From: an uncultured Flavobacteriaceae bacterium
Lineage (GTDB): Bacteria > Bacteroidota > Bacteroidia > Flavobacteriales > Flavobacteriaceae
Direction: 5' to 3'
Assembly: GCA_963760375.1 (NCBI GenBank)
Contig: CAVXCS010000003.1
Span: 3,590 to 67,589 of the forward strand
DNA length: 64,000 bases
A program made the position numbers and the translations under genes. The notes under the pieces are model-generated. The model had not been told where the DNA came from. It was given only the letters and a program-made list of their open reading frames with translations, and ran no database searches. Shown here piece by piece: positions 9,510-36,660 of the stretch. The first letter of the stretch is position 1, and each line of letters opens with the position of its first letter.

Positions 9510-9591
9510 GCATAGCTATAAAGCTTTGGGCCGAATAATCGGGTCTGTGATGCGCGGTCGTATTTTATATCACAATTAAAATGAATCAACC

Positions 9592-19889: not shown

Positions 19890-19899
19890 CTTTTTTGTT

Positions 19900-20979: not shown

Positions 20980-21071
20980 GATTTTGTTTTTATAGTTCAC
21001 TTTAGGCTATTTAAGCGTTTGTTTCTTCTGAATGTTCAAATTTTTGGTGGTATTGTAAAAGGGCTATGGCG

Positions 21072-22376: not shown

Positions 22377-22407
22377 CTTGGATCTGTTATTTTCTTTTAA
22401 TCTGGGG

Positions 22408-22451
22408 TAAAAGTAGACCTAAAGGGGATGTTGGTCGGTAACAATGGTTAC
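22408..22451 (-). promoter_or_regulatory. motif-A operator plus -7 box (promoter of tolC-MFP-RND operon)
   Basis: GGTAACAATGGTTACC with core GTAAC-N4-GTTAC at 22438-22451. Minus-strand TACTTTTA at 22415-22408 starts 29.5 bp from the centre. Confidence 0.65.
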
Positions 22452-24336: not shown

Positions 24337-24356
24337 TATGTAACAATTGTTACATA
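24337..24356. promoter_or_regulatory. motif-A operator (perfect 20-bp palindrome)
   Basis: TATGTAACAATTGTTACATA with core at 24340-24353. Its centre is 53 bp upstream of the motif-B centre at 24293.5. No -7 box lies at the 29.5-bp position. Confidence 0.6.
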
Positions 24357-24408: not shown

Positions 24409-25044
24409 CTACCTGCCACATTGTTCTTTGCTGTCGTTGATGATCGCATTATAATCTTCAAAAGCTAAATATTGTGGTACATAAGTCATTCCCATCCCAT
24501 CCAGGGTGGAGGTAAAGCTTCTCAAATGGTTGCGCGAACCGCATTGCAATGATTCAAAAACCGCAATCACTTGGATATTATTGGTCATTACCAAGTAGTT
24601 TTCCAAATCAACAATATCCATATCCTCAATGGTGGCGCCCACCTCCAATGCTTTGGTTTCATTAATACTACCGTCTATTACATAGCGATCGTACAGGGCT
24701 TGTATTTCTTGGTTTGCAAATTGCCCATCCGGCATAATGGAATAGGGTATTTTATATTGATTTAGAAGGCCCACTACGGCATCCATATGTGATTGTTCGC
24801 TGTTCTTTATATTGGAGAATACATTGATTCCCCATAGTTCACCTAAGTAAACGTAGGTGTCCCGCGCGAGTTTTTCTTCTTCCAACATAAAAAGCAGCGC
24901 ATTTTGATCTTCTTGGCCAATAGCATTGCTTTCGATATCACCCAATGGCATTTCGGAACCATCCTTGGAGCAGCCCGCAAACAGGCTTACGAATAGAAAT
25001 CCGAGTACAAGCACTGGCTTTATTGATTTTTCCGGATTTTTCAT
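24409..25044 (-). CDS. DUF2202 (ferritin-like) lipoprotein
   Basis: Lipobox SLFAGC. LLFMLEEEKLARDTYVYLGELWGINVFSNIKNSEQSHMDAV is the characteristic DUF2202 segment. Confidence 0.7.
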   Translation of the reverse strand: MKNPEKSIKPVLVLGFLFVSLFAGCSKDGSEMPLGDIESNAIGQEDQNALLFMLEEEKLARDTYVYLGELWGINVFSNIKNSEQSHMDAVVGLLNQYKIPYSIMPDGQFANQEIQALYDRYVIDGSINETKALEVGATIEDMDIVDLENYLVMTNNIQVIAVFESLQCGSRNHLRSFTSTLDGMGMTYVPQYLAFEDYNAIINDSKEQCGR

Positions 25045-25098: not shown

Positions 25099-25112
25099 GC
25101 AACTTTTGTTAC
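25099..25112 (-). promoter_or_regulatory. motif-A operator, one mismatch (upstream of DUF2202 gene)
   Basis: Plus strand reads GCAACTTTTGTTAC (coding strand GTAACAAAAGTTGC). It lies inside a 24-nt block at 25093-25116 that is 22/24 identical to 26096-26119. Both blocks begin 49 nt from their start codons. Confidence 0.5.
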
Positions 25113-25183: not shown

Positions 25184-26047
25184 CTATTTTATTTTTTCGA
25201 CCAAAAGCCTCCATTGTTCTGGGGTCAAGGTTGATAAAACCATATCCCTGCAGTTGGTTTTCATCGTAACGACCTCTTTTCTCAACACTTCAATTTGATC
25301 GATTTTGGCCAGGATTTCTTCTTGGGCCCCTTTTTGCAGAGAGGCTTGGTATGTTTCCTTTTCCAAAGCGCTGATTTGGTTGGCCATTTCATCCATTTTG
25401 GGATGGTGGTCCGCAATCCAAGCATCAAAAATGGTTTTTTGCTCGGGGGTAATGCCCAATGTCCCGGCATCGCGGTTTATCGCCTGAATATAATTGGGAA
25501 CGGGATTTACATGCTGCATCACCTCCATCCTTTTGATTCGTTCTTTAAAGGGATGTTCGTTTTGGTATTTTAGTACCAAGGCATCCCATTGCTCGGGCAG
25601 TAAGGTATTCATTATCAATTCCCTACATTGCAATTTGGTGGCCGCAATTTCTTTTCTAAGTTTTCCGGTTTCCCTTGCTTTCTCAAATAGGGCAACGGTA
25701 TCTGCCTTTAACATGGATAGGGAATGGATCTCTTTTTCAAGGGCCGCGAGCGCCTTCATTTCCGTTTCGATTTTTGAATGATTGCCCTTTCGCCATTCTG
25801 AAAGTATTTTCTCCTGTTCATCGTTGAGCCCAAGATCGTTTCGGGGTGCGGCAAGCACTTGCATAAAATTCGCCCCGGGATAATAATCCACGATGGCTTC
25901 TTCGCTTTTTCGGGCCATTTCCTGCGATGTGGTCTCGTCCTGCGGGTCGGCAACAGGCGCCGACTCAGGCTTATGTTTGCAGGATTGGAAGAATATCCCT
26001 GAAATGATAAGGGCTAAAGCGATGGGGGTTGTTTTGCGTATTTTCAT
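25184..26047 (-). CDS. periplasmic helical lipoprotein with internal duplication (Spy/CpxP-like)
   Basis: Start moved to the ATG at 26047 (MKIRKTTPIALALIISGIFFQSC lipobox). Two ~85-aa helical repeats are present (LNDEQEKILSEW...LLPEQWDALV and ITPEQKTIFDAW...LTPEQWRLLV). Confidence 0.55.
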   Translation of the reverse strand: MKIRKTTPIALALIISGIFFQSCKHKPESAPVADPQDETTSQEMARKSEEAIVDYYPGANFMQVLAAPRNDLGLNDEQEKILSEWRKGNHSKIETEMKALAALEKEIHSLSMLKADTVALFEKARETGKLRKEIAATKLQCRELIMNTLLPEQWDALVLKYQNEHPFKERIKRMEVMQHVNPVPNYIQAINRDAGTLGITPEQKTIFDAWIADHHPKMDEMANQISALEKETYQASLQKGAQEEILAKIDQIEVLRKEVVTMKTNCRDMVLSTLTPEQWRLLVEKIK

Positions 26048-26071
26048 GTCAATATGTTTTGGAATTATCGT

Positions 26072-26115
26072 TAAAATTAGTTCATGCCAAAGGACCCTAC
26101 AGTCACTTTTGTTAC
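26072..26115 (-). promoter_or_regulatory. motif-A operator (one mismatch) plus -7 box (promoter of 26047..25184)
   Basis: Plus strand reads GTCACTTTTGTTAC at 26102-26115. Minus-strand TAATTTTA at 26079-26072 starts 29.5 bp from the centre. Confidence 0.55.
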
Positions 26116-26251
26116 ACGGTAATGTTACTTCCCTATCTGGATAGAAACCTCCCGAATCAAACCTGTACAAAAAGACACGCCAATGGTGAATGTCTTGAGA
26201 TTCGATAAAACTTGGTTTAGTCATTTGCGAATGGATATATCAAGGGTTTCT

Positions 26252-26295
26252 GTAATGTATGTTACAGTGCAGCACCGCCCAAAACATTATATTCG
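26252..26295 (+). promoter_or_regulatory. motif-A operator (one mismatch) plus -7 box (promoter of dihaem cytochrome/porin operon)
   Basis: TGTAATGTATGTTACA with core at 26252-26265. TATATTCG at 26288-26295 starts 29.5 bp from the centre. Confidence 0.55.
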
Positions 26296-26346
26296 TGCCA
26301 TATTTTATCGCGTTTTTAAATACTTTCATCAACCCCTTTTAAACCT

Positions 26347-27378
26347 ATGGAAGCGTTACGGTCACTTATAAGAAAGCTTTTTTGGTTGTTCCTGACCGTG
26401 TTTTTGTTGATTGCCACGGTGTTTATTGGCTTGTTTCGCTTTCCGGAGGGGTCATCTCCGATTCCGGCACCCCAACCCGATGTCGTTCTCAAGGAATGGC
26501 AGCCAAAAAATGTACTGGAAGCATTGAGTACCATGGATTCCGAAGTGAAACTGGGTTATCTGTTGATCAAGGAAACGCCGGGTCAAATGGGCCCGTCCGC
26601 CGATAATCCCGAAATGCGTTTTAGCGGGAATCACCTGGCCTGTGCCAATTGTCATTTGAAGGAGGGTACGCAGGCAGGGTCCGCCTCATGGGTGGGCGTC
26701 ATCGACCGGTTCCCCCAATTCGGAGGGCGTTCCAACAAGATAGGGACCATCGAGGATCGGATCAATGGATGCATGGAGCGCAGTATGAACGGAAAAAAAC
26801 TTCCGCCCGATTCTGAACCCATGAAAGCGATCGTGGCTTACATGGAATGGCTCGGGGTAGGATTGCCGGCAGACAGACGAAATGAATACATGGGTTATGC
26901 CGAAATGGAAATACCAGAAAGGGCAGTCGACCTCCCGAAGGGAGAAGCCCTGTACATGAAGGAATGCATGGTCTGTCATGGGGAGAGCGGTCAAGGGATT
27001 CGTTTGGCGGATGCCTCGGAAGGATACCTATATCCGCCCTTATGGGGCCCGGATAGTTACAACAATGGGGCAGGCATGCACCGGGTGATCACGGCAGCCG
27101 AATTCATCAAAGGGAATATGCCCTTTGGCCAAGCCACATGGGACAATCCCAAATTGACCGATGAGGAAGCCTTCGATGTGGCGGGATATATCAATAGCTT
27201 TGATCGCCCTGTAAAGGCAGGCACGGAAAATGATTATCCCGATAAAAAATTAAAACCGGTATCGACACCTTATGGCCCTTGGGCCGATGATTTTTCGGCC
27301 GAACAGCATAAATTCGGTCCTTTTCAGCCGATTATGGAATTCTACAAAAGGCAATACGATATAACCAAGACCAAATGA
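26347..27378 (+). CDS. dihaem c-type cytochrome, TsdA-like (thiosulfate dehydrogenase-like)
   Basis: Two CxxCH motifs (CANCH, first Cys codon at 26641, and CMVCH). A conserved Cys sits 39 residues after the first haem His, in IEDRINGCMERSMNG, as in TsdA/SoxA-type Cys-ligated haems. Confidence 0.65.
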   Translation: MEALRSLIRKLFWLFLTVFLLIATVFIGLFRFPEGSSPIPAPQPDVVLKEWQPKNVLEALSTMDSEVKLGYLLIKETPGQMGPSADNPEMRFSGNHLACANCHLKEGTQAGSASWVGVIDRFPQFGGRSNKIGTIEDRINGCMERSMNGKKLPPDSEPMKAIVAYMEWLGVGLPADRRNEYMGYAEMEIPERAVDLPKGEALYMKECMVCHGESGQGIRLADASEGYLYPPLWGPDSYNNGAGMHRVITAAEFIKGNMPFGQATWDNPKLTDEEAFDVAGYINSFDRPVKAGTENDYPDKKLKPVSTPYGPWADDFSAEQHKFGPFQPIMEFYKRQYDITKTK

Positions 27379-28724
27379 AACCAACCCTTGCCCTTGCTTC
27401 CCTGTTATGCCTGATGTCGAATTTCGCCCTGTCCCAGGATAAGGTCGAAACAAAAGATAAAGGGAAGCTGTCCGGACAATGGAGAACCTATTTCATGGGG
27501 ACAGTCAACAACGGAAATTTAAAGGATTTTTATGCGCTGGCTTCCGGTGGCAAGATCAAGTATCAATATTCGTTCAATGACAAATTGGAACTGGGGGCAG
27601 CGGTTTACAATGCCACCAACCTGGGTCTACAAGATCTTACGCTGGCCGATCCAACAACCGGTAGGTTGAGCCGTTATGAAGAAGGTCTGTTCAATAGGCT
27701 CGACCTTGCCAACGATGCGGTATTCTTATTGGGGGAGCTATATGCAAAAGTCAAAATACCGAAACATGAATTCACCTTGGGTCGAATGAAAGTAAACTCC
27801 CCTTTGCTGAACCCCCAGGACGGAAGGATGATACCCACTCTTGTACAAGGTCTCTGGTACGGCTATCGACCCAACACCTCCAATGTCTTGCAATTTGGGG
27901 TGTTTAACCAAATAGCCCCCCGATCGACCGGTGGATTTTACGGCATAGGGGAAAGTATCGGCACTTACCCTGTGGGGAGGAACCCGGCGGGCCAAACAAG
28001 TGGCTATGCGGGGAACACCGATTCCGATTATTTGGTCTTGTTCAATACGGAATTGAAGGTCACGGAAACCGTTCGACTCGATTTTTGGAACTTGTATGCA
28101 GACAATGTTTCGAACAGCACCTATTTGAGGCCCAAAATGCAGTTGAACCAAAAATGGAACCTGGAAATGGAATGGTTGCACCAAAACAAAGTGGGCAATG
28201 GGGGCAATGCCGTTGATTCATTGCGCTATTTTACGAGCAAATCTTCAGACATTTTGGGCATTAGGATGAATTATCGATCGAATAGATCGGAAATCTCCCT
28301 GGCCTATAACAGGATTTTCGCCCATGGGCAATTTCTTTCGCCCCGGGAATGGGGAAGGGAAGACCTGTTCAGTTTTCAGAAAAGGGAACGCAGCGAGGGG
28401 TCTGGAGACAACCATGCCTTGGTCTTATACTATGACGATCACTTTGGCCTTGGCAAAGGCAAGGACCAAATTCAAGGTATTTTCAGTGTTGGCAAACATT
28501 GGAAGCCCTCTGTTTTAGATCCCCGATTGAACAAATATGCCATTCCGGACTATACCCATATCAACATTGACCTGTTTTTTAAGTTTGAAAAGCTAAAGAA
28601 CCTTCAACCCGAACTGTTGTTGGTGACGAAGATCGCCAATGGCGACTTCCCCGATAATCCGAATTATTACTTCAACAAGACCGATATGTTCCATATCGAT
28701 ATCATTTTGAATTACAATTTTTAG
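27375..28724 (+). CDS. outer-membrane porin (OprD-like)
   Basis: Signal peptide, GRMKVNSPLLNPQDGRMIPTLVQG segment, and a beta-barrel pattern ending in ...ILNYNF. It overlaps the cytochrome gene stop by 4 nt. Confidence 0.6.
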   Translation: MKPTLALASLLCLMSNFALSQDKVETKDKGKLSGQWRTYFMGTVNNGNLKDFYALASGGKIKYQYSFNDKLELGAAVYNATNLGLQDLTLADPTTGRLSRYEEGLFNRLDLANDAVFLLGELYAKVKIPKHEFTLGRMKVNSPLLNPQDGRMIPTLVQGLWYGYRPNTSNVLQFGVFNQIAPRSTGGFYGIGESIGTYPVGRNPAGQTSGYAGNTDSDYLVLFNTELKVTETVRLDFWNLYADNVSNSTYLRPKMQLNQKWNLEMEWLHQNKVGNGGNAVDSLRYFTSKSSDILGIRMNYRSNRSEISLAYNRIFAHGQFLSPREWGREDLFSFQKRERSEGSGDNHALVLYYDDHFGLGKGKDQIQGIFSVGKHWKPSVLDPRLNKYAIPDYTHINIDLFFKFEKLKNLQPELLLVTKIANGDFPDNPNYYFNKTDMFHIDIILNYNF

Positions 28725-28800: not shown

Positions 28801-30063
28801 TTAAACGTCCTGACCTTTCATCATTTTATTCCAGTACAGATAGGGGAGTATATATTTTTTAAGGATCCAAAGCCTCCAATGCTCCTTGGCGCTGTCAAAG
28901 ACCAGCATCTGCTTTAATTTGGGGTCGGGCGTAAAATTGTTTTGATAGTCGAATTCCCCGAGGACCATTTTGCCATAACCGGTGACCAGGGGGCAAGACG
29001 AATACCCGTTGTAAGATTTATTGCTGGCTTCTTGGTGATCCATCAGTTTCATGAGGTTGTCTACCACTACCGGCACTTGCTTTCTGATCGCCGCCCCCGT
29101 TTTGGCCGTGGGCAGTGCCGCAACATCGCCCAACCCAAAAATATTGGTGAAATGGTTGTGCTGCATCGAATGGTGGTCAACATCGAGCCATCCGGCATCA
29201 TTCACCAAAACCGATTCTTTCACAAACTTGGGCGCTGTTTGGGGAGGCGCTAGGTGCAACATGTCGAAAGGGATCTCGATTACGGCCTCCCCGGTCATTT
29301 TTTCTCCCAAGGGATTGTTCTCGGCGATCACACTTTGATTTTCACCCGTTGCCGTGTTTTTGAAGTAGATTATCTTCTTCTCCGCGTCTATTTTAAAGGG
29401 GGCATAAAAGGGTTTGAAATGGATGTCGTAACGTTCGAGGACCTTTGTCAGGGTGGTCTTTATTTCCTTCACGCCGAAAATGACCGATCCCGGGGTGGCA
29501 AAGATGACATTGGTTTTCTTGGCCAGCCCATGTTTTCTGAAATAATCGGCCGCCAAATAGGCAGTTTTCTGAGGCGCGCCCCCACACTTGATGGGTGTGG
29601 TGGGTTGGGTAAATACGGCGTTGCCGCCCTTGAAATTTTTGATGACCTCCCAGGTATGTTTGGGGTCGGTATAATTACTGCATACCACGCCCTTGCCGAT
29701 GGCTTCCGTTAGGCCTTCGATGAGCGAAGTATCCATCACCAGACCTGGGGCGACCACCAAATAATCATAGGTGATCGTGCCGGTTGACTTGGTGGTTACC
29801 GCATTTTTTTTGGGGTCGAAGCCGGTGGCATAGTCCTTGATCCAATTGACCCCTTTGGGCATCACCGAGGCCATGGGCCTGGCGGTTTTATCGTAGTCAT
29901 AAGTGCCTGCGCCCACCAGGGTCCAAGCAGGTTGATAGTAGTGCGTATCGGCCGGCTCAATGATGGCGATGTCCAAACTTTTATTGCGCTTCAGGAGTTG
30001 CGCGGCCGTCATGATGCCCGCGGTTCCCCCGCCTATAATGAGAATTTGATGATGTGCTTTCAT
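28801..30063 (-). CDS. sqr: sulfide:quinone oxidoreductase, type II (SQRDL-like)
   Basis: FAD motif IIGGGTAG. Conserved cysteines lie in PIKCGGAPQK and YSSCPLVTG. 420 aa. Confidence 0.85.
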   Translation of the reverse strand: MKAHHQILIIGGGTAGIMTAAQLLKRNKSLDIAIIEPADTHYYQPAWTLVGAGTYDYDKTARPMASVMPKGVNWIKDYATGFDPKKNAVTTKSTGTITYDYLVVAPGLVMDTSLIEGLTEAIGKGVVCSNYTDPKHTWEVIKNFKGGNAVFTQPTTPIKCGGAPQKTAYLAADYFRKHGLAKKTNVIFATPGSVIFGVKEIKTTLTKVLERYDIHFKPFYAPFKIDAEKKIIYFKNTATGENQSVIAENNPLGEKMTGEAVIEIPFDMLHLAPPQTAPKFVKESVLVNDAGWLDVDHHSMQHNHFTNIFGLGDVAALPTAKTGAAIRKQVPVVVDNLMKLMDHQEASNKSYNGYSSCPLVTGYGKMVLGEFDYQNNFTPDPKLKQMLVFDSAKEHWRLWILKKYILPYLYWNKMMKGQDV

Positions 30064-30106: not shown

Positions 30107-30150
30107 TAAAGTTAAGGAAGCCTTCCTTGATTTTCAGTAACTTAGGTTAC
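30107..30150 (-). promoter_or_regulatory. motif-A operator plus -7 box (promoter of sqr)
   Basis: AGTAACTTAGGTTACA with core at 30137-30150. Minus-strand TAACTTTA at 30114-30107 starts 29.5 bp from the centre. Confidence 0.65.
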
Positions 30151-30182: not shown

Positions 30183-30893
30183 TCAGGATTCTAAAAGAAG
30201 CTTTCCGCTTTGGTCTGAGAGGATAAAGTCAGCGGCCATTTTGGCGTGTAATCGGGTAGTGGCCAGTAGGGGCAGGGCTCCCTCTTCGGGCCCTATCAGC
30301 AGTGGAAGTTCCGTACAGCCCAAAATAATGCCATCGGCACCCTTTTCCTTAAGCGATCGTATCTGTTCCAAAAAGAAGGTTTTGGCCTCGGGGGTAAACT
30401 TTCCTTGGGTCAGTTCGTTGGAAACATATTGATGGCAGGTATCGATATATTCGGCTTCCGGTATAATCGTCTCGATGCCATGGTTTTTTTTGAGCTGGGT
30501 CTGGATAAAACCTTTGGTCATGGTGGGCCTGTTCCCCAAAAGCCCCAGTCTTTTGAGTCCCAAACGGGCGGCCTCGCGCCCTGTTGCGTCAGCGATGTGC
30601 AGGATGGGAATTTTGATTTTGGGTTGCACAAAATCATAGACCATATGTGGGGTATTGGCACAGATAACGATGGCCCGTGCCCCGGCATTTTGCAATATTG
30701 TGGCCACCTCCAGGTAGGTGTCGTTGATTTTCTTTACCTCCTGCGCCCGCATCAATTCAATGTTCAGGCTGAAAAGTATCAGGGGCGGGTTGCCCTGCGG
30801 CCCAATGGTTTCGCCTACCATCTCGTTGATCATTCTATAATAAACGATGGTGGAATGCCACGACGTGCCGCCAATAAGTCCGATTAGCCTCAA
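30183..30893 (-). CDS. aspartate/glutamate racemase family protein
   Basis: IGLIGGTSWHSTIVYY and GADGIILGCTELPLL motifs. The apparent start is TTG. Confidence 0.8.
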   Translation of the reverse strand: MRLIGLIGGTSWHSTIVYYRMINEMVGETIGPQGNPPLILFSLNIELMRAQEVKKINDTYLEVATILQNAGARAIVICANTPHMVYDFVQPKIKIPILHIADATGREAARLGLKRLGLLGNRPTMTKGFIQTQLKKNHGIETIIPEAEYIDTCHQYVSNELTQGKFTPEAKTFFLEQIRSLKEKGADGIILGCTELPLLIGPEEGALPLLATTRLHAKMAADFILSDQSGKLLLES

Positions 30894-30918: not shown

Positions 30919-31917
30919 TTAAGGGTTGTTTTCATCGAAGACGATGCTCCAAATGCCCCTGACCTGGTTCACATCATACCCTACGGCCAGGTCTTTTGGG
31001 TAAAGTTTCTTCAAGGTGGCCATGGTGGCCGGTGCGATTTGTTCATCAGGGGTTCCATGACATTGCAGGCACATGGCGTTGGTGGTGATGGGGTAATAAA
31101 AATGCACCTCCCCTTCGACGGTATTTACAATAGGTTCGACTTCCCCGCCCGTTGCCAAGGCCTTTTTAAAAGAATCGATGTAGCCCAATTCTTCCGAACT
31201 GGCCTTATTCTTGGGATTTCTTGGTTTATCCGATACCCTTTTGATGACCGCATTGTTCATTATCGACACACTGTCGGTTAGTCCGGTAGCCTCGTTATGG
31301 CAGAAACCAATGGCCCCTACCGTACCTTTTTCCTGAACGGCCTTCATCAAATTTGAGCCCAATTGGCTTTTCGCGGCCGATGCATAATCGAGCCCCATCT
31401 TGGTATACCGGGCCTGGGCCCTTTTTGCGGCCATACCCATGCCCTTGTTTTTTCCTTTTTGCTTCCCGTATTGCTCTTGGTAGCGGCCGTCGTACCAAGT
31501 GGGTTTCTCAATGTCATAATCATAAAGGTACGCGGCAACCTGGGCAAGGGCATCTTCCGGATAGGGCATATAGGGCATGGTGCCAAATTGTTTATGGGCA
31601 CCGGGCATTTTGGTTTCTTGTTCAGGATCGTTCATCCATCGGATGAGGTCTTCCGTAAACGTTTCCTTGGTGGTATTCGAATCGATATAATGACGTTTGA
31701 TGGCCACCATGGGCGGTGCGATCATCGCCTCTTGGGAGGCTTTGGGATTATGGCATTGATAACATTCCGTTTCCAAGACCCTTTTGCCGGGATGCGTATC
31801 TTTATCCTGTACCGTTTCTTGCCAGGCATCGGATACGATGGGTACCGGATCCGATTTCGTGTTTTCCCTACAATTGACGAGGACCAAAAAAACAAGCAGC
31901 GATGCGATACGTTTCAT
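30919..31917 (-). CDS. c-type cytochrome / DUF3365-like lipoprotein
   Basis: Lipobox LVLVNC. Haem motifs CYQCH and CLQCH. Start moved to the ATG at 31917. Confidence 0.65.
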   Translation of the reverse strand: MKRIASLLVFLVLVNCRENTKSDPVPIVSDAWQETVQDKDTHPGKRVLETECYQCHNPKASQEAMIAPPMVAIKRHYIDSNTTKETFTEDLIRWMNDPEQETKMPGAHKQFGTMPYMPYPEDALAQVAAYLYDYDIEKPTWYDGRYQEQYGKQKGKNKGMGMAAKRAQARYTKMGLDYASAAKSQLGSNLMKAVQEKGTVGAIGFCHNEATGLTDSVSIMNNAVIKRVSDKPRNPKNKASSEELGYIDSFKKALATGGEVEPIVNTVEGEVHFYYPITTNAMCLQCHGTPDEQIAPATMATLKKLYPKDLAVGYDVNQVRGIWSIVFDENNP

Positions 31918-32020
31918 AATTTCCAGATTTTGATAGGGTACCATGACCGAGGTATCGACATAGGATTACCCCAGTGTTCTCCAAACCCTTTGAAGTCGGT
32001 TCATCGGCAAAGGTGAAAAA

Positions 32021-32392
32021 TTACATTCGCCCTGCCAAAGCCGATTCGTTGTTCCATCTTTGGTAACCGCCTTTCAGGTCATAAATTTCTGAAAATCCCA
32101 TCGCCAACAATCTCTTTGCTGCATTTTTGCTCCGAGATCCCGATCGGCAATAGAGGTAAACCGGTTTGTTCTTGTTCAATTTCTCAAAGGATTTATTAAA
32201 ATTCGCCCCATCGAAAAAATCGATGTTGAGGGCATTTTTGATATGGCCACTGCGATACTCACGGGCCGTGCGCACATCCACGAGTTGCACTTTTTTCCCG
32301 GAAACCGCGGTAGCATAGGCCATGGGGTCCAATATTTTGATTTTATCCGACGGTGCTTGTTTTGTTCCGAATAAGTTACTGAAAAACGACAT
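32021..32392 (-). CDS. rhodanese-domain sulfurtransferase
   Basis: Active-site loop YCRSGSRS. Start moved to the ATG at 32392 (MSFFSNLFG). Confidence 0.8.
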   Translation of the reverse strand: MSFFSNLFGTKQAPSDKIKILDPMAYATAVSGKKVQLVDVRTAREYRSGHIKNALNIDFFDGANFNKSFEKLNKNKPVYLYCRSGSRSKNAAKRLLAMGFSEIYDLKGGYQRWNNESALAGRM

Positions 32393-32528
32393 ATAATCCT
32401 GTATTGAGGTTCTTTGGCGGTAATGAAAGGGAAACGGCACCTATTACGATAACCGTTTCCCTAAACAACCAACCTAACAAAACCAATTTATTTTACAAAT
32501 TTTTTTGGTGTAAATCCGTGCTTGCGCC

Positions 32529-33944
32529 CTATAGCATGGTAGTAGGCTCCACATATTTCGATTTTTTGATATCTGTTTTCTTCAACGCGTCGAACCCGCC
32601 GATCACATCCACAAAATCTTCCCAGCCTCTTTGCTTGAGGATCGATGCGGCAACCATGCTGCGATATCCCCCTGCACAATGCAATACGAAAGGTTTGTCT
32701 TTCGGGAATTGCGATAAATGCTGGTTGATCTCATTCAAGGGAACGTTGATGGCACCGATGACGTGCTCCGAATCGAACTCGCTCTTTTTTCTAACGTCAA
32801 TGACCAAAACGTCATTGGTTCTGTATTTCTTTCCAAAAGCCTCGGGCGTGATCCTATCCACGTTTTCAAAGGGTTTCTTGGCTTTTTTCCAGCTTTCGAA
32901 ACCGCCCTCTAAAAATCCTACGGTTCGGTCGTAACCCACCCTCGATAAACGGGTGATGGCCTCTTCCTCCTTGCCCGGATAAGTGATCAAAAGGATGGGC
33001 TGTTTCACATCGGGGATCATTTCCCCTACCCATTGGGCGAAACTGCCCTCGAGCCCGATGTTGACACTGTTGGGGACAAAGCCTTTGGCAAAGTCCTCGG
33101 CATCCCGGGTATCCAACATCAACGCATCGGTTTCATTGGCGACCGCTTCGAATGCCTCGGGCGATAAAGGTTTTTCGCCACGCTCCATAACCGTATCGAG
33201 ACTTTCGTAACCCTTGATGTTCATCAGCACATTCTGCGGAAAATATCCCGGAGGTGCGGTCAAACCGGTCAAAAGTTCTTTGATGAACTCTTCTTTGGTC
33301 ATATCTGGTCTGAGGGCATAGTTCGTTTTCTTTTGATGGCCCAGGGTATCGGAGGTTTCCTTGCTCATTTTCTTGCCACAGGCAGATCCTGCACCATGGT
33401 TGGGATATACGATAAGGTCGTCGGACAAGGGCATTATTTTGTTTCTCAGGGAATCGTACAAGTACCCGGCCAATTTTTCCTCGGTAAGTTCCGACACCAC
33501 GTGTTGTGCCAAATCGGGTCTTCCCACATCCCCAATAAATAGGGTATCCCCGGTAATGATGCCATGTTCTTTCCCGTTTTCATCGATCAACAGGTAAGTG
33601 GTGCTTTCCATGGTGTGTCCCGGTGTATGCAATACCTTGACCTTATAGTCGCCCACTTTGAAAATTTGGTTGTCTTTTGCGACCAAAGCTTCATATCCGG
33701 GCTTCGCGGTAGGCCCGAATACGATTTGGGCTCCCGTTTTTTTCTGCAGGTCGAGATGGCCACTGACAAAGTCGGCATGAAAATGGGTTTCAAAAACATA
33801 AGTTATCTTGGCCTTATCTTTCTTGGCCCTATCGATATAGGGCTGTACCTCACGTAGGGGGTCAAATATGGCAGCTTCTCCCTTGCTTTCCAAATAATAG
33901 GCCGCGTGGGCCAAACATCCGGTGTATATCTGTTCTATCTTCAT
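32529..33944 (-). CDS. MBL-fold persulfide-dioxygenase-like protein fused to two rhodanese domains
   Basis: The metallo-beta-lactamase motif ETHFHADFVSGH is followed by rhodanese modules. The last has the active-site loop HCAGGYRS. Confidence 0.85.
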   Translation of the reverse strand: MKIEQIYTGCLAHAAYYLESKGEAAIFDPLREVQPYIDRAKKDKAKITYVFETHFHADFVSGHLDLQKKTGAQIVFGPTAKPGYEALVAKDNQIFKVGDYKVKVLHTPGHTMESTTYLLIDENGKEHGIITGDTLFIGDVGRPDLAQHVVSELTEEKLAGYLYDSLRNKIMPLSDDLIVYPNHGAGSACGKKMSKETSDTLGHQKKTNYALRPDMTKEEFIKELLTGLTAPPGYFPQNVLMNIKGYESLDTVMERGEKPLSPEAFEAVANETDALMLDTRDAEDFAKGFVPNSVNIGLEGSFAQWVGEMIPDVKQPILLITYPGKEEEAITRLSRVGYDRTVGFLEGGFESWKKAKKPFENVDRITPEAFGKKYRTNDVLVIDVRKKSEFDSEHVIGAINVPLNEINQHLSQFPKDKPFVLHCAGGYRSMVAASILKQRGWEDFVDVIGGFDALKKTDIKKSKYVEPTTML

Positions 33945-33970: not shown

Positions 33971-34014
33971 TAAATGTAAGGACGGTTAAAAACCTGTACA
34001 GTAACATTGGTTAC
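33971..34014 (-). promoter_or_regulatory. motif-A operator plus -7 box (promoter of PDO-rhodanese operon)
   Basis: AGTAACATTGGTTACA with core at 34001-34014. Minus-strand TACATTTA at 33978-33971 starts 29.5 bp from the centre. Confidence 0.65.
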
Positions 34015-34067: not shown

Positions 34068-34868
34068 TTAGAATAGTTCTTTGAACAAAATGTAAATCCC
34101 CATGAGCAACACGAACCATCCAAAAGATTTTTTAAGCCGGTTGCCATCGATAAACTTGTTGAGCCAAACGCCCAAGAATATGCCTACCACCGAGAGGGCC
34201 GTAAATCGAAACAGAAACGCCCAGTCGATGTCGAGGTTTTCCACATCACCTATAAAACCGATCAAAGACTTTATCGCGATGATCAGCAGGGAAGTGGCGA
34301 CCGCTTTTTTCATGGGTAGTTTGGCCAACATCACAAGGGCGGGAATGATCAGGAAACCGCCCCCTGCGCCCACGATACCGGTTATGACCCCAACCACAAA
34401 TCCTTCGAGAACGATCAAGGGAAAATTGTATTCGACCACGGCATTATCGTCATCACAGTTTTTGCACTTGCCCTTGATCATTGAATAGGAGGCCAAGAGC
34501 ATGATCAGGGCAAAGAACACCATGATGCCGATATCCTTGGTCACCAAAAACCCGCCTACCGTAAACAGTTCGTCGGGTATGGCGGGCACCATGTATTTTC
34601 TGGTGGCATACACGGCGATAAATGCGGGAATGGCAAAGACGATGGCCGTCTTAAAGTCGACCAATCCCTTTCTGATATTTTGAATCGCCCCGACCAGCGA
34701 GGAGACCCCCACTACGAACAGGGAATAGGCCGTGGCCACGACAGGGTTGAGGTATAATAGGTAAACAAAAACGGGAACCGTAAGAATAGATCCTCCACCA
34801 CCGATCAAGCCCAATACTACCCCAATCAGCAAGGCCCCGACATAGCCCAAAATTTCCAAGAATTCCAT
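34068..34868 (-). CDS. TauE/SafE-family sulfite/anion exporter
   Basis: 266-aa polytopic protein with duplicated GGGGS/GAGGGF motifs (LIGGGGSILTVP, IVGAGGGFLIIP). Confidence 0.85.
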   Translation of the reverse strand: MEFLEILGYVGALLIGVVLGLIGGGGSILTVPVFVYLLYLNPVVATAYSLFVVGVSSLVGAIQNIRKGLVDFKTAIVFAIPAFIAVYATRKYMVPAIPDELFTVGGFLVTKDIGIMVFFALIMLLASYSMIKGKCKNCDDDNAVVEYNFPLIVLEGFVVGVITGIVGAGGGFLIIPALVMLAKLPMKKAVATSLLIIAIKSLIGFIGDVENLDIDWAFLFRFTALSVVGIFLGVWLNKFIDGNRLKKSFGWFVLLMGIYILFKELF

Positions 34869-34887: not shown

Positions 34888-34931
34888 CAAATGTACGGGG
34901 CTTGGAAAGCAACGGCAGTAACCTATGTTAC
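34888..34931 (-). promoter_or_regulatory. motif-A operator plus -7 box (promoter of tauE-like gene)
   Basis: AGTAACCTATGTTACA with core at 34918-34931. Minus-strand perfect TACATTTG at 34895-34888 starts 29.5 bp from the centre. Confidence 0.7.
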
Positions 34932-34938
34932 AGAGCGA

Positions 34939-35571
34939 TCAAAGATCCAGGATGGTGATGTGGTTTCGGTTGAGCGCTATCTTGCCCATATTTTCCAGTT
35001 TTTTGAGCAAACGGGATATGACCACACGTGAGGTGTGCAGTTCGTAAGCGATTTCTTGATGGGTACTGTGGATGATGTGGTCTTTGTTGACCTTGGCCTT
35101 TTTGCCTAGGTATTTCAATAAGCGTTCGTCCATTTTCAGGAACGCGATACTGTCGACCGTTTCCAGCATTTCATTAAGGCGGTTATGGTAGCTCTGCAGC
35201 ACAAAGTTGCGCCAAGTTTTATAGTTGGTCAACCATTCCTCCATTTTTTGAACGGGCACCATGATCAATGTAACATCGGTCTCGGCAATGGCCCTTATTT
35301 CACTTTTGGTATGCCCCAGGCAACAGGTAAGGGTCATGGCGCAGGTATCGCCATTCTCGAGGAAATAGAGCAGTAATTCGTCCCCTTGGTCATCTTCGCG
35401 TAGAATTTTGATCACGCCCGATAACAGCAGCGGCATCGATTTGATGTACTCCCCGATTTCCATCAAGGTATCCCCCTCAGGAATTTCCTTAAAGAGGCCA
35501 ATATGGCTGATTTCCTCCAACAATGCTCCCTCGAACAAGCTTCCATAACGTTCGGTCAGTTCTTTGATCAT
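34939..35571 (-). CDS. Crp/Fnr-family transcriptional regulator (Crp3)
   Basis: A cNMP-type beta-roll plus a C-terminal HTH (STHQEIAYELHTSRVVISRLLKKLENMG). A Cys-X5-Cys-Cys motif in the roll (GDTCAMTLTCCLG) is encoded at 35320-35343. Confidence 0.85.
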   Translation of the reverse strand: MIKELTERYGSLFEGALLEEISHIGLFKEIPEGDTLMEIGEYIKSMPLLLSGVIKILREDDQGDELLLYFLENGDTCAMTLTCCLGHTKSEIRAIAETDVTLIMVPVQKMEEWLTNYKTWRNFVLQSYHNRLNEMLETVDSIAFLKMDERLLKYLGKKAKVNKDHIIHSTHQEIAYELHTSRVVISRLLKKLENMGKIALNRNHITILDL

Positions 35572-35574
35572 GGT

Positions 35575-36660
35575 TTAGGTGCCTGAGGTCTTCAAAAGGA
35601 TAAATTCGCTGATGTTCACCATATCGATGGCACCCAACAATTTATTGCCGGAGGTGACCGGGATAAAACTGTGTTTTTCCTTTCCGATCAATTCCATCAC
35701 TTTGACGATCTCGGTAGTGGCATCGACGGTCTTAAAATTTTTCTGCATGATTTCGAGAACCGATAGGGCGGGGTTGCCCGCATTTTTGATGATATCTTTT
35801 TGAAATACCAAACCCACGATTTGATCGTTTTGGACCACCACAAAATCTTTCTCGGTACCGGCCAACAGTATATCCACCACTTCCTGCACGGTGTTTTCAG
35901 GGGCAAGCAGGGTAATATGGGTCAACATGGCCTCCCTTGCCAAATGGCCCTCCAAGATGGAGGCCTGTTTCACCATTTGGTTTTCCCCATAGGCGCCGAA
36001 AAAGATAAAAAAGGCAATGAGCACTAAAAAAGGATTGAACAGGAGACCCAAGACAAAGAAAATCAAGGCCATGGCCTGGCCCAAGGTAGCCGCTACCGCG
36101 GTGGCCTTGACCCGACCCAGATTGTACGATAGCAGTGCCCGCAGCACCCGACCGCCATCCATGGGAAAGGCTGGGATCATGTTGAAGACCACCAACATCA
36201 CATTGGCGATGAACAAATAAAATAAAAAGTTACTCAAGCTGGGTTGAAACAACATCTCGTCGATCACCACATTGTCAAAATTAAAATAGCTCCGTAGCGG
36301 GATGACCAATGACAGCAAGATGGCAATGATCACATTCACGGCCGGCCCCGCCAATGCTACCAATAGTTCTTGGCCGGGTTTATCGGGCATCTTTTCCAGG
36401 GAGGCCACGCCTCCGATGGGCAATAGCGTTATTTTTTGCGTTTTGATATCGAATCTTTTCGCGGTGAGGGCATGACCCAACTCATGCAGTACCACACAGA
36501 CGAAGAGGACCAAGATCAGGGCCATGTTAAAAAATGCGGTCTGTGGGGTACCACCGCGCTGTATATCCAAAAAAACCACCCATATCAATAATAAGGTAAA
36601 AGTCCAATGGACCTCGATCTTGATTCCAGAAACACTGCCCAGTCTTAATACGCCTTTCAT
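35575..36660 (-). CDS. M50 (site-2 protease family) zinc metalloprotease with C-terminal CBS pair
   Basis: HELGH zinc motif in a polytopic N-terminal part. The C-terminal ~130 aa have a CBS-pair pattern. Its stop is 3 nt before the Crp3 start. Confidence 0.85.
   Translation of the reverse strand: MKGVLRLGSVSGIKIEVHWTFTLLLIWVVFLDIQRGGTPQTAFFNMALILVLFVCVVLHELGHALTAKRFDIKTQKITLLPIGGVASLEKMPDKPGQELLVALAGPAVNVIIAILLSLVIPLRSYFNFDNVVIDEMLFQPSLSNFLFYLFIANVMLVVFNMIPAFPMDGGRVLRALLSYNLGRVKATAVAATLGQAMALIFFVLGLLFNPFLVLIAFFIFFGAYGENQMVKQASILEGHLAREAMLTHITLLAPENTVQEVVDILLAGTEKDFVVVQNDQIVGLVFQKDIIKNAGNPALSVLEIMQKNFKTVDATTEIVKVMELIGKEKHSFIPVTSGNKLLGAIDMVNISEFILLKTSGT

What the first reader, a model, noticed from the sequence alone, without database searches (positions are those of the whole stretch)
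34939..35571. Crp/Fnr-family protein with a Cys-X5-Cys-Cys in its sensor roll as candidate regulator of an SQR/PDO cluster
Characterised bacterial sulfide-oxidation clusters are controlled by CstR/CsoR-type, BigR/SqrR (ArsR-type) or FisR (sigma-54) persulfide sensors. Here the adjacent regulator is a Crp/Fnr protein instead. It lacks the N-terminal FNR Fe-S cysteines but carries C77, C83 and C84 (GDTCAMTLTCCLG, codons 35320-35343) inside the beta-roll that normally binds the effector. Vicinal and nearby thiols are what persulfide sensors use to form di-, tri- or tetrasulfide links. This could be a new class of reactive-sulfur-sensing Crp regulator.
Basis: inference. Interest (0 to 1): 0.7.

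Follow-up and report, generated by a model that had tools for sequence, protein, structure and literature searches.

The report
Cysteine-bearing Crp regulator of sulfide detoxification
A Crp/Fnr-type gene switch carrying three conserved cysteines almost certainly controls the sulfide-detoxifying genes next to it in marine Flavobacteria, and it may be a previously undescribed type of reactive-sulfur sensor, although the sensing chemistry is only inferred.

Summary
ORF 34939-35571 (-) encodes a 210-aa Crp/Fnr protein whose only cysteines are C77, C83 and C84.

A 14-bp palindrome, GTAAC-N4-GTTAC, lies upstream of tauE, the CstB-like pdo, the type II sqr, an RND efflux operon and probably a TsdA-like operon. 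The window has 5 exact and 4 one-mismatch matches against 0.59 expected. Five of these sites are followed after exactly 22 nt by a Bacteroidetes -7 box, which puts the site centre near -41.5, the class II activator position.

The same arrangement recurs in 160 related loci:
- C-X5-CC is kept in 158 of 160.
- The 80 genome loci hold 179 exact sites against 1.3 in shuffles.
- 92 of 108 sites have the 22-nt spacing.
- The regulon also takes in SulP, YeeE, a 1-Cys peroxiredoxin, a sulfite-oxidase-like enzyme and cytochrome bd.

The recognition helix (R-V-x-x-x-R) matches NtcA, which binds GTA-N8-TAC.

Persulfide sensing by the cysteines remains inference. C77 is near-universal in a wider family, and the triad also occurs in relatives with no sulfur genes nearby. 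A 2026 review lists no dedicated Crp/Fnr-type reactive-sulfur sensor.

The parts
34939..35571 (-). Crp/Fnr-family regulator gene, 210 aa
   Evidence: ORF and translation. Pfam cNMP_binding + HTH_Crp_2. AF2 model with pLDDT 82.6 has a canonical Crp fold; top Foldseek hits are 3dv8, MtbCRP, TtCAP, NtcA and FNR.
35320..35343 (-). Codons for C77-X5-C83-C84 in the phosphate-binding-cassette equivalent of the beta-roll
   Evidence: One search gives the coordinates. Invariant in the top 120 homologues and kept in 158 of 160 related loci. In the AF2 model beta6 is 65-71 and a helix spans 78-86, so C77 sits at the helix N-cap and C83/C84 are inside the helix. C77 aligns to CRP I70 and lies one residue before CooA's heme ligand C75.
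35002..35034 (-). Recognition helix TSRVVISRLLK (residues 180-190), with R182-V183...R187
   Evidence: Aligns to NtcA STRVTVTRLL and CRP CSRETVGRIL. V183 occupies the CRP E181 position, as in NtcA, which binds GTA-N8-TAC. Coordinates.
34918..34931 (-). Binding site GTAACATAGGTTAC upstream of tauE; -7 box TACATTTG at 34888-34895
   Evidence: Spacer is exactly 22 nt; site centre is 56.5 nt before the ATG.
34068..34868 (-). tauE/safE-family anion exporter gene (predicted target)
   Evidence: Pfam TauE, 1.1e-44. Orthologues carry the site plus box in 37 loci.
34001..34014 (-). Binding site GTAACCAATGTTAC upstream of pdo; -7 box TACATTTA at 33971-33978
   Evidence: 22-nt spacer.
32529..33944 (-). 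CstB-like persulfide dioxygenase with two rhodanese domains (predicted target, the core of the regulon)
   Evidence: Pfam Lactamase_B + 2 Rhodanese. PDB 3tp9 at 5e-69 and CstB 3r2u at 3e-55. 66 orthologous genes in 51 loci carry the site plus box.
32021..32440 (-). Single-domain rhodanese, probably co-transcribed with pdo (true start probably the ATG at 32392)
   Evidence: Pfam Rhodanese, 1.5e-23. The 123-aa orthologue in L091 supports the shorter start.
30919..31944 (-). c-type cytochrome with a Tll0287-like domain, in the same operon
   Evidence: Pfam Tll0287-like, 7.6e-22, plus CXXCH motifs. Present in 11 of 80 loci.
30183..30893 (-). Asp/Glu racemase-family gene inside the operon
   Evidence: Pfam Asp_Glu_race, 2.5e-41. 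Found in the same position in L091.
30137..30150 (-). Binding site GTAACCTAAGTTAC upstream of sqr; -7 box TAACTTTA at 30107-30114
   Evidence: 22-nt spacer.
28801..30063 (-). Type II (human SQOR-like) sulfide:quinone oxidoreductase (predicted target)
   Evidence: PDB 6oi5 at 2.6e-98. 11 loci have the site plus box upstream of sqr.
26252..26265 (+). One-mismatch site GTAATGTATGTTAC with a near-consensus box TATATTCG at 26288-26295, upstream of the TsdA-like cytochrome c (26347-27378) and OprD-like porin (27375-28724)
   Evidence: Pfam SoxA-TsdA_cyt-c and OprD.
26102..26115 (-). One-mismatch site with -7 box TAATTTTA at 26072-26079, upstream of an unknown 287-aa gene (25184-26047)
   Evidence: No Pfam hit.
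22438..22451 (-). Binding site GTAACCATTGTTAC with -7 box TACTTTTA at 22408-22415, upstream of TolC (21072-22376), HlyD (19900-21000) and AcrB (16701-19970)
   Evidence: An RND operon sits next to the regulator in L028, L045, L047, L091 and L092.
24340..24353 (.). Perfect palindrome TGTAACAATTGTTACA upstream of a DUF6799 gene (23547-24218), without a -7 box at the canonical spacing; possible additional site

Best explanation
The gene encodes a dedicated local transcription factor of the Crp/Fnr superfamily. It controls a sulfide/persulfide/sulfite detoxification regulon in Flavobacteriaceae. Shown by sequence analysis: the dimer's NtcA-like recognition helices (R182-V183...R187) fit the palindrome TGTAAC-N4-GTTAC. 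That palindrome lies upstream of tauE, the CstB-like pdo-rhodanese operon, type II sqr, an RND efflux operon and probably a TsdA-like operon. Its end is exactly 22 nt from the Bacteroidetes -7 box TAnnTTTG, and no -33 element is conserved in between. Inferred from that geometry and from known Crp/Fnr promoters: the site is centred near -41.5 and the protein acts as a class II activator that substitutes for the -33 contact. Inferred from regulon content: the physiological signal is sulfide or a derived reactive sulfur species. The regulon holds SQR, PDO, rhodaneses, TauE, SulP, YeeE, a sulfite-oxidase-like enzyme, a 1-Cys peroxiredoxin and cytochrome bd, which by established knowledge is the sulfide-insensitive oxidase. 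Inferred and not shown: the signal is read by the cysteines in the phosphate-binding-cassette equivalent. C77, at the N-cap of the cassette helix where the helix dipole should lower its pKa, is attacked by sulfane sulfur to give C77-SSH. C83 or C84, one and a half to two turns along the helix, resolves this to a tri- or tetrasulfide bridge. This would remodel the cassette helix, the element that transmits cAMP binding in CRP and that carries the heme ligands in CooA, and so switch the DNA-binding domains on.
For: Regulator-target link:
- The window has 5 exact and 4 one-mismatch palindromes against 0.59 expected, and 8 of the 9 lie within 13 kb of the gene.
- Five window promoters have an identical 22-nt spacing to a TAnnTTT[GA] box.
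- In the 80 genome loci, crp is followed on the same strand by tauE and/or pdo (PDO in 61, TauE in 47).
- Those loci hold 179 exact sites against 1.3 in shuffles; same-composition control palindromes reach at most 7.
- 92 of 108 target-proximal sites have the box at exactly 22 nt, and the spacer carries no information.
- Nine loci have a site upstream of crp itself.

Helix-site fit: the query's R-V-x-x-x-R aligns with NtcA R-V-T-V-T-R, with V in place of CRP E181.

Extension to divergent relatives:
- 80 metagenome loci at 43-70% identity all keep C-X5-CC.
- 46 of the 54 loci of at least 5 kb have sulfur-gene neighbours.
- There are 105 exact sites in 0.75 Mb.
- P0146, at 41% identity, has an exact site followed by a rhodanese gene.

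Cysteines:
- Invariant in the top 120 homologues while neighbouring positions 82, 85 and 87 vary.
- Located in the cassette equivalent.
- The cAMP-binding residues are replaced: A78, M79 and K89 stand for G71, E72 and R82.
- The one orthologue that lost both C83 and C84 (L079) has no pdo and no site within 10 kb.

Precedent: FisR is an activator that senses RSS through three conserved Cys (PMC9774590).
Against: There is no chemical or expression evidence.
- In the AF2 model C77 and C83/C84 are separated by about two helical turns, and the local pLDDT is only about 70. A pre-formed reactive pair is therefore not evident.
- C77 is near-universal (146 of 150) in a much wider family, including single-Cys proteins. 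It could be a cofactor ligand or a structural residue.
- The full triad occurs in E183-helix relatives next to unrelated genes: ApbE/MerR for P0157, and DUF7009/MoaA for P0137.
- Two V183/CCC relatives at about 50% identity have no sulfur genes in the DNA retrieved.
- Two-Cys variants (L071 and P0144) are still in sulfur clusters.
- A site at the -33 region is also compatible with repression by occlusion.
Confidence: 0.5

Rival explanations
1. Same regulator and regulon, but the cysteines ligate a cofactor: a [4Fe-4S] or [2Fe-2S] cluster with a fourth non-Cys ligand, a heme thiolate, or a thiophilic metal ion. The signal (sulfide, O2, redox state or a metal) is then read through that cofactor rather than by direct S-sulfhydration.
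For: - The triad lies where CooA carries its heme ligands C75/H77. GDTC77AM aligns with GDMFC75M.
- C77 is conserved even in single-Cys relatives, as expected for a cofactor ligand.
- D75 and M79 next to C77 are highly conserved.
- From established knowledge: B. subtilis Fnr binds a [4Fe-4S] cluster with three Cys plus one Asp, Rrf2 sensors use C-X5-C-type spacings, and A. ferrooxidans ArsR binds As(III) with CC-X5-C.
- The regulon includes an RND efflux pump.
Against: - No conserved His partner is present; H87 varies between Q, H and N.
- The regulon consists of sulfur-oxidation genes, not metal-resistance or anaerobic-respiration genes.
- PDO needs O2, so an FNR-like anaerobic switch would be counterproductive.
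- AF2 places C83/C84 inside a helix rather than in a ligand loop.
- Variants with only two Cys persist in sulfur clusters.
Confidence: 0.2
2. Same regulator and regulon, but activation is by non-covalent binding of a small sulfur metabolite (for example thiosulfate, sulfite, sulfide, or a low-molecular-weight persulfide or CoA persulfide) in the beta-roll pocket. The cysteines merely line the pocket.
For: - This is the default mechanism of the superfamily (cAMP for CRP, 2-oxoglutarate for NtcA); the closest PDB relatives are.
- S90, equivalent to the CRP phosphate-binding S83, is more than 90% conserved across the wide family, and K89 occupies the R82 position, suggesting an anion pocket.
- The regulon includes sulfite and thiosulfate handlers: TauE, SulP, a sulfite-oxidase-like enzyme and TsdA.
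Against: - Invariance of three cysteines, including a vicinal pair, across 158 of 160 loci is unusual for mere pocket lining, given that adjacent positions vary.
- No such ligand is known for any Crp/Fnr protein.
Confidence: 0.15
3. The cysteines form a general thiol-redox switch that responds to disulfide stress, peroxide or electrophiles, or is kept reduced and active by sulfide. The protein would then not be an RSS-specific sensor, and the sulfur genes would be one output of a broader redox response.
For: - The regulon includes a 1-Cys peroxiredoxin (9 loci) and thioredoxin-like proteins.
- The C77-containing family is broad and is found in many contexts.
- From established knowledge, redox-regulated Crp/Fnr members already exist (L. 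casei FLP and Desulfitobacterium CprK).
Against: - The core of the regulon is specific for sulfide, persulfide and sulfite: PDO in 51 loci, TauE in 37, plus SQR, SulP and YeeE.
- The predicted C77-C83/84 separation of about two helical turns disfavours a simple disulfide (inference).
Confidence: 0.1
4. The adjacency is incidental: the palindromes are bound by another factor, and this Crp protein regulates something else.
For: - No binding experiment has been done.
- In the window crp starts 3 bp after an M50/CBS protease gene and has no site of its own.
Against: - The gene and the sites co-occur in 160 loci across 41-100% identity.
- The site has the Crp/Fnr 5-N4-5 architecture and matches what an NtcA-like R-V...R helix should read.
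- Nine loci have autoregulatory sites.
- The M50 neighbour is absent from all 80 genome loci.
Confidence: 0.03

Closest known systems
NtcA (cyanobacterial global nitrogen regulator, Crp/Fnr family)
   Same: Second-best PDB sequence match (2xgx, 1.2e-10). Same recognition-helix pattern, R-V-x-x-x-R, with Val at the CRP E181 position. The predicted site GTAAC-N4-GTTAC is a special case of the NtcA consensus GTA-N8-TAC. Class II activator geometry near -41.5.
   Different: Only about 24% identity. The NCBIfam NtcA equivalog scores 44 against a cut-off of 245. NtcA senses 2-oxoglutarate non-covalently and partners with PipX, has no Cys triad, and has an unrelated regulon and phylum.
CstR and the S. 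aureus cst operon (tauE, cstR, cstA, cstB, sqr)
   Same: The target genes are the same functional set: a TauE exporter, a CstB-like PDO-rhodanese fusion (3r2u, 3e-55), a rhodanese and a type II SQR. A dedicated adjacent regulator carries conserved cysteines.
   Different: CstR is a CsoR-fold all-helical tetrameric repressor with two Cys on different protomers. This protein is a Crp-fold dimer, probably an activator, with three Cys in a single cassette helix.
FisR (sigma-54-dependent activator of sqr/pdo in Cupriavidus)
   Same: An activator, not a repressor, of sulfide-oxidation genes, reported to sense RSS through three conserved Cys that form di- and tetrasulfide links (PMC9774590; PMC13467558).
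   Different: FisR is a bacterial enhancer-binding protein with an AAA+ domain acting on sigma-54. This protein has only a cNMP-binding-like domain and a Crp HTH, and it acts at Bacteroidetes sigma-A-type -7 promoters.
SqrR/BigR (ArsR-type persulfide-sensing repressors)
   Same: Dedicated RSS-responsive control of sqr/pdo/rhodanese genes. The dithiol pair is spaced too far apart for an easy disulfide, which favours tetrasulfide formation (established knowledge). That is analogous to the spacing predicted here.
   Different: Different fold (winged-helix ArsR), a repressor, and a different operator.
CooA (heme-based CO sensor, Crp/Fnr family)
   Same: Same fold. The sensory residues C75/H77 lie in the same segment after the conserved G-D, one residue out of register with C77.
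   Different: CooA lacks the 7-residue helix insertion that carries C83/C84. No His is conserved here. The Pro2 ligand and the CO regulon are absent.
PDB 3dv8 (Eubacterium rectale Crp/Fnr protein, structural genomics, function unknown)
   Same: Best sequence match (8.2e-15) and best fold match. It has Cys aligned with C77 and C83 (DMCLLSASCIM).
   Different: It lacks C84, has an R-E-V-I-T-R helix, comes from an anaerobic Firmicute, and has no known link to sulfur genes.

Membership tests
Crp/Fnr superfamily | N-terminal cNMP-binding-like beta-roll, long dimerisation helix, C-terminal winged HTH | tested here: met
   Pfam PF00027 + PF13545. The AF2 secondary structure shows a beta-roll, helix 118-162 and an HTH. 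Foldseek hits to Crp, NtcA and FNR have probability 1.00.
CRP (cAMP receptor protein) | Cyclic-nucleotide contacts G71, E72, R82, S83, T127, S128 | tested here: not met
   The aligned residues are A78, M79, K89, S90, M135 and L136. The NCBIfam CRP equivalog scores 51 bits against a cut-off of 266.
FNR (O2-sensing [4Fe-4S]) | Three N-terminal Cys (C20, C23, C29) plus C122 | tested here: not met
   The only Cys are at positions 77, 83 and 84. NCBIfam Fnr scores 22 bits against a cut-off of 228.
FNR (O2-sensing [4Fe-4S]) | E-x-x-S-R recognition helix reading TTGAT-N4-ATCAA | tested here: not met
   The helix is R-V-V-I-S-R, with V183 in place of Glu. The enriched site is GTAAC-N4-GTTAC.
NtcA | R-V-x-x-x-R helix and a GTA-N8-TAC site | tested here: met
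   Helix alignment. Site enrichment.
NtcA | Orthology (equivalog score) and 2-oxoglutarate/PipX-dependent activation | tested here: not met
   TIGR03697 scores 44 bits against a cut-off of 245. The 2-oxoglutarate contacts were not examined.
CooA | Heme axial ligands His77/Cys75 and N-terminal Pro2 | tested here: inconclusive
   C77 aligns one residue before CooA C75. No His is present at or conserved near the H77 position, and the N-terminus is MIKE. The alignment is weak (E 0.008). Heme binding cannot be tested with these tools.
CstR (CsoR-type persulfide sensor) | CsoR/DUF156 four-helix-bundle fold with a C31/C60' pair | tested here: not met
   Only Crp/Fnr domains are detected.
SqrR/BigR (ArsR-type persulfide sensor) | ArsR/SmtB winged-helix fold with a conserved Cys pair | tested here: not met
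   No ArsR-type domain is found.
FisR (sigma-54 activator) | AAA+ sigma-54 interaction domain and Fis-type HTH | tested here: not met
   The protein is 210 aa and contains only the cNMP-like domain and the Crp HTH.
Dedicated reactive-sulfur-species sensor (functional class) | Encoded next to, and controlling, sqr/pdo/rhodanese/tauE genes | tested here: met
   Synteny and operator conservation in 160 loci. Control is predicted from these data, not measured.
Dedicated reactive-sulfur-species sensor (functional class) | At least two conserved cysteines | tested here: met
   C-X5-CC in 158 of 160 loci. The exceptions are L071 (two Cys) and L079 (one Cys, with no targets nearby).
Dedicated reactive-sulfur-species sensor (functional class) | Cys persulfidation or polysulfide cross-linking that changes DNA binding; sulfide-inducible targets | not testable with these tools
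   This needs mass spectrometry, EMSA and in vivo reporters.

The most novel reading that the evidence does not exclude
This is the founding member of a fourth structural class of dedicated bacterial persulfide/polysulfide sensors, after CsoR-type CstR, ArsR-type SqrR/BigR and sigma-54-type FisR. In it, the cyclic-nucleotide phosphate-binding cassette of a Crp/Fnr protein has been converted into a thiol switch, with an N-cap Cys plus a vicinal Cys pair. The class is widespread in marine Flavobacteriaceae, where it activates a sulfide-to-sulfite detoxification regulon from class II promoters. The much larger family that shares C77 (both E183 and V183 types, with one to three Cys) would then be a general family of thiol-based Crp sensors.
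Probability: 0.4. Interest if true: 0.8.

Novelty: new variant of a known kind. Interest (0 to 1): 0.66.

Why it matters
Flavobacteriaceae are major degraders of organic matter in the ocean, and they meet sulfide on particles, in sediments and in oxygen-minimum zones. How they control sulfide and persulfide detoxification is not described in the literature I could search. A 2026 review names only three classes of dedicated RSS sensors, none of them Crp/Fnr.

This analysis yields a concrete and testable regulon. It gives an operator sequence, a promoter architecture and a target list that includes cytochrome bd, a sulfite-oxidase-like enzyme, and SulP and YeeE transporters. It also gives a defined three-residue hypothesis for the sensor.

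If the thiol switch is confirmed, it would show that the cyclic-nucleotide-binding cassette can be turned into a covalent redox or sulfur sensor. It would also supply an activator-type, orthogonal sulfide biosensor part.

Tried and rejected
- The generic sigma-70 promoter/terminator scan gave counts no higher than in shuffles. It does not apply to Bacteroidetes promoters, so I dropped it in favour of the TAnnTTTG -7 box.
- The first attempt to scan genomes with a 132-sequence alignment failed because no stretch was conserved enough. I repeated it with 27 sequences.
- Several context look-ups for distant representatives returned contigs too short to be informative: P0126, P0146 and P0136.
- YeiL was considered as a possible relative. 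The only paper retrieved (PMC3590769) gave no usable information on cysteine positions, so I did not pursue it.
- I checked whether the M50/CBS protease immediately upstream belongs to the system. It is present only in the 94%-identical relative (L091) and in none of the 80 genome loci, so I rejected it as a conserved component.
- I looked in the window for the extra regulon members seen elsewhere (SulP, 1-Cys Prx, DUF983, sulfite-oxidase-like enzyme, CydA, YeeE, NrfD). None is present.
- No model coordinates are exposed, so Cys-Cys distances could not be measured. The separation is inferred from secondary structure only.
- Six literature searches for a Crp/Fnr-type sulfide or persulfide sensor, or for regulation of pdo/sqr in Flavobacteria, found nothing relevant.
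Full report
**1. The observation**

The minus-strand ORF 34939-35571 encodes a 210-aa protein. Pfam finds a cNMP-binding-like domain at residues 28-116 and a Crp-type HTH at residues 150-210. The protein has exactly three cysteines, C77, C83 and C84, in GDTCAMTLTCCLG. No cysteine precedes residue 77, so the N-terminal FNR cluster motif is absent.

The neighbours lie on the same strand:
- A TauE-family exporter at 34068-34868.
- A metallo-beta-lactamase plus double-rhodanese protein at 32529-33944. Its best solved relatives are 3tp9 (5e-69) and S. aureus CstB 3r2u (3e-55).
- A rhodanese, a Tll0287-like c-type cytochrome and an Asp/Glu racemase.
- A flavoprotein at 28801-30063 that matches human SQOR at 2.6e-98, i.e. 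a type II SQR.

This gene set is the functional equivalent of the S. aureus cst operon, with a Crp/Fnr protein in the position that CstR occupies there.

**2. Is it the regulator of these genes?**

The intergenic regions hold a repeated palindrome, GTAAC-N4-GTTAC, upstream of tauE, pdo and sqr. The 64-kb window has 5 exact and 4 one-mismatch matches against 0.59 expected, and none of 100 shuffles reached 9. Eight of the nine lie between 22.4 and 34.9 kb, within 13 kb of the regulator gene.

Further sites precede other genes:
- A TolC-HlyD-AcrB efflux operon (site at 22438).
- An unknown 287-aa gene (site at 26102).
- With one mismatch, a TsdA-like dihaem cytochrome plus OprD-like porin operon (site at 26252).

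At five promoters the palindrome is followed after exactly 22 nt by TA-N2-TTT(G/A). From established knowledge this is the Bacteroidetes sigma-A -7 box, TAnnTTTG. The tsdA promoter has TATATTCG at the same spacing.

**3. Related loci**

A genome scan returned 80 Flavobacteriaceae loci at 61-74% identity.
- The regulator is followed on the same strand by pdo in 61 loci and by tauE in 47. sqr lies within 10 kb in 11.
- These 1.40 Mb contain 179 exact palindromes against 1.3 in shuffles. Sixty control palindromes of the same composition gave at most 7, with a median of 1.
- Of 108 sites upstream of cluster genes, 92 have the -7 box at exactly 22 nt. The spacer carries no information, so no -33 TTTG is conserved.

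The site centre therefore lies 29 nt upstream of the first base of the -7 box, which is about -41.5. In the Crp/Fnr family that is the class II activator position (inference from geometry).

The recognition helix TSRVVISR aligns with NtcA STRVTVTR and with CRP CSRETVGR, and Val stands at the CRP E181 position. NtcA binds GTA-N8-TAC, and GTAAC-N4-GTTAC is a special case of that consensus. Nine loci also have a site upstream of the regulator gene itself.

I conclude with high confidence that this protein binds these sites and controls the cluster.

**4. The regulon**

I collected every gene that follows a site-plus-box promoter in the 80 loci:

| Gene product | Count |
|---|---|
| CstB-like PDO | 66 genes in 51 loci |
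| TauE | 37 |
| Type II SQR | 11 |
| SulP/STAS permease | 10 |
| 1-Cys peroxiredoxin | 9 |
| The regulator itself | 9 |
| Fatty-acid-hydroxylase-family membrane protein | 7 |
| DUF983 | 7 |
| Sulfite-oxidase-like molybdoenzyme | 5 |
| Cytochrome bd subunit I | 3 |
| TolC/RND | 3 |
| NrfD/ferredoxin fusion | 2 |
| YeeE | 2 |
| Thioredoxin-like proteins | 2 |

This is a coherent set for handling sulfide, persulfide and sulfite. From established knowledge, cytochrome bd is the sulfide-insensitive terminal oxidase. The physiological signal is therefore most likely sulfide or a species derived from it.

**5. The cysteines**

All three are invariant in the 120 closest homologues, while positions 82, 85 and 87 vary. 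They are kept in 78 of the 80 genome loci. The two exceptions are informative:
- L071 has C84G and still has pdo and a site.
- L079 keeps only C77 and has neither pdo nor any site within 10 kb.

A metagenome scan seeded with distant members returned 80 loci at 43-70% identity to the window protein:
- All 80 keep C-X5-CC.
- 46 of the 54 loci of at least 5 kb have sulfur-gene neighbours (PDO 43, YeeE 31, TauE 26, SulP 15, SQR 9, CydA 5).
- Of the loci below 50% identity, 7 of 9 have such neighbours and 8 of 9 have a site.

P0146, at 41% identity, has an exact site followed by a rhodanese gene.

**6. Where the cysteines sit**

By alignment to E. coli CRP, C77 corresponds to I70, A78 to G71, M79 to E72, C83 to F76, C84 to E77, K89 to R82 and S90 to S83. 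The triad thus lies in the phosphate-binding cassette, and the cAMP contacts are replaced.

The AlphaFold model has mean pLDDT 82.6, but only about 70 in this segment. It has strand 65-71 and a helix at 78-86, so C77 is the helix N-cap and C83/C84 lie one and a half to two turns further along.

I verified the CooA sequence against 1FT9. It aligns GDMFC75M with GDTC77AM (E 0.008). The triad therefore occupies the segment that carries the heme ligands in CooA.

This segment is the allosteric trigger in the superfamily. A Cys at a helix N-cap is expected to have a lowered pKa. A spacing of i, i+6 and i+7 along a helix is too long for an easy disulfide, but an S3 or S4 bridge could span it. These last three points are inference, not results.

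**7. Complications**

A search of 50%-identity representatives shows that C77 is present in 146 of 150 relatives down to 33% identity, including proteins with a single Cys. The full triad occurs in 53 of these 150. It is split between V183 helices (24) and E183 helices (28), with one carrying another residue at that position.
- Two E183/CCC members have unrelated neighbours and no sites: ApbE/MerR for P0157, and DUF7009/MoaA for P0137.
- Two V183/CCC members at about 50% identity show no sulfur genes in the DNA retrieved.
- A V183 member with C77/N83/C84 (P0144) lies in a polysulfide-reductase-like cluster with two YeeE genes, four rhodaneses and TauE, and has an exact site.

The cysteine module is therefore older and broader than the sulfide regulon, and two Cys appear to be enough. 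A cofactor-ligand or pocket-lining role for C77 cannot be excluded.

**8. Comparison with what is known**

[quoted passage not shown] It fails the defining tests for CRP, FNR and NtcA orthology, and it has none of the folds of CstR, SqrR/BigR or FisR.
- On the DNA side it works like NtcA.
- In regulatory logic it works like FisR, an activator with three sensing Cys (PMC9774590).
- It controls the gene set that CstR controls.

A review dated August 2026 names three classes of dedicated RSS sensors (CsoR-type, ArsR-type and sigma-54-type) plus secondary sensors of the MarR, OxyR and other families. Its only mention of Crp is as a protein found persulfidated in an A. baumannii proteome (PMC13467558). 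Six full-text searches found no Crp/Fnr-type sulfide sensor and no account of pdo/sqr regulation in Flavobacteria.

**9. Verdict**

The regulator-regulon assignment is strongly supported, about 0.9 in my estimate. Activation from about -41.5 is likely, about 0.7. Sensing of sulfane sulfur by the cysteines is plausible but unproven, about 0.45. The combined best explanation has confidence 0.5.

I rate the finding a new variant of a known kind: a Crp/Fnr regulator recruited to RSS homeostasis, with a cysteine-bearing cassette. Interest is 0.66.

Noticed in passing
window 16701-22451 (-): A TolC-HlyD-AcrB RND efflux operon carries an exact regulator site and a canonical -7 box (site 22438-22451, box 22408-22415). 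RND operons also sit next to the regulator in L028, L045, L047, L091 and L092. It is unknown what a sulfide-responsive efflux pump would export.
   Followed up: partly
window 26252-28724 (+): A TsdA/SoxA-like dihaem cytochrome c (26347-27378) overlaps an OprD-like porin gene (27375-28724) by 4 bp. The pair is preceded by a one-mismatch site with a near-consensus box. This may be a thiosulfate-dehydrogenase-plus-porin module in the same regulon. OprD-like genes recur near the regulator in 4 of the genome loci and 8 of the metagenome loci.
   Followed up: partly
window 30919-31944 (-): A c-type cytochrome with a Tll0287-like (PAS-like heme c) domain is embedded in the pdo operon. It is present in 11 of 80 related loci and directly follows the regulator in Pricia (L092). 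It has no NCBIfam family and its role is unknown.
   Followed up: no
window 30183-30893 (-): An Asp/Glu racemase-family gene sits between the cytochrome and sqr. It recurs in the same clusters in L006, L007, L009 and L091. This is an odd member for a sulfur operon.
   Followed up: no
window 35575-36660 (-): An M50 site-2 protease with CBS domains ends 3 bp before the regulator's start codon, so the two are probably co-transcribed here. It is present only in the 94%-identical relative (L091) and in none of the 80 genome loci.
   Followed up: yes
window 24340-24353 and 25099-25112: A perfect 16-bp palindrome, TGTAACAATTGTTACA, lies upstream of a DUF6799 gene (23547-24218). A one-mismatch site lies upstream of a DUF2202 (ferritin-like) gene (24409-25044). 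Neither has a -7 box at the canonical 22-nt spacing, so their function is unclear.
   Followed up: partly
window 25184-26224 (-): The mechanical ORF of 346 aa is probably too long. A site plus -7 box lies inside its 5' end, and the likely start is the ATG at 26047, giving 287 aa. The product has no Pfam or NCBIfam match.
   Followed up: partly
L001 15730-16368, L002 6019-6609, L008 16974-17618, L072 14944-15576: A second Crp/Fnr paralogue lies inside the same sulfur clusters; in L008 it is directly upstream of sqr. It is about 36% identical to the window protein, has the motif GESC(I/A/V)MS with only the C77-equivalent Cys, and has an SREVISR helix. The window has no such paralogue.
   Followed up: no
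L006-L009, L018, L020, L030 (about 9540-10000); L089, L090; L132, L150, L156: In a subset of genomes the regulator is preceded by a small DUF983 membrane protein with two CxxC motifs. That gene carries the regulator's own site upstream, so DUF983-crp forms an autoregulated operon. DUF983 may be a partner protein.
   Followed up: no
L174 1-11111: A relative with C77/N83/C84 (P0144, 44% identity) lies in a cluster with a polysulfide/thiosulfate-reductase-like enzyme (molybdopterin, Fer4 and NrfD subunits), two YeeE genes, four rhodaneses, a porin and TauE. An exact GTAACAAATGTTAC precedes one of the rhodanese genes. The family therefore also controls reductive sulfur metabolism.
   Followed up: partly
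PDB 3dv8 (Eubacterium rectale): The closest solved structure has cysteines aligned with C77 and C83 (DMCLLSASCIM).
   Followed up: no
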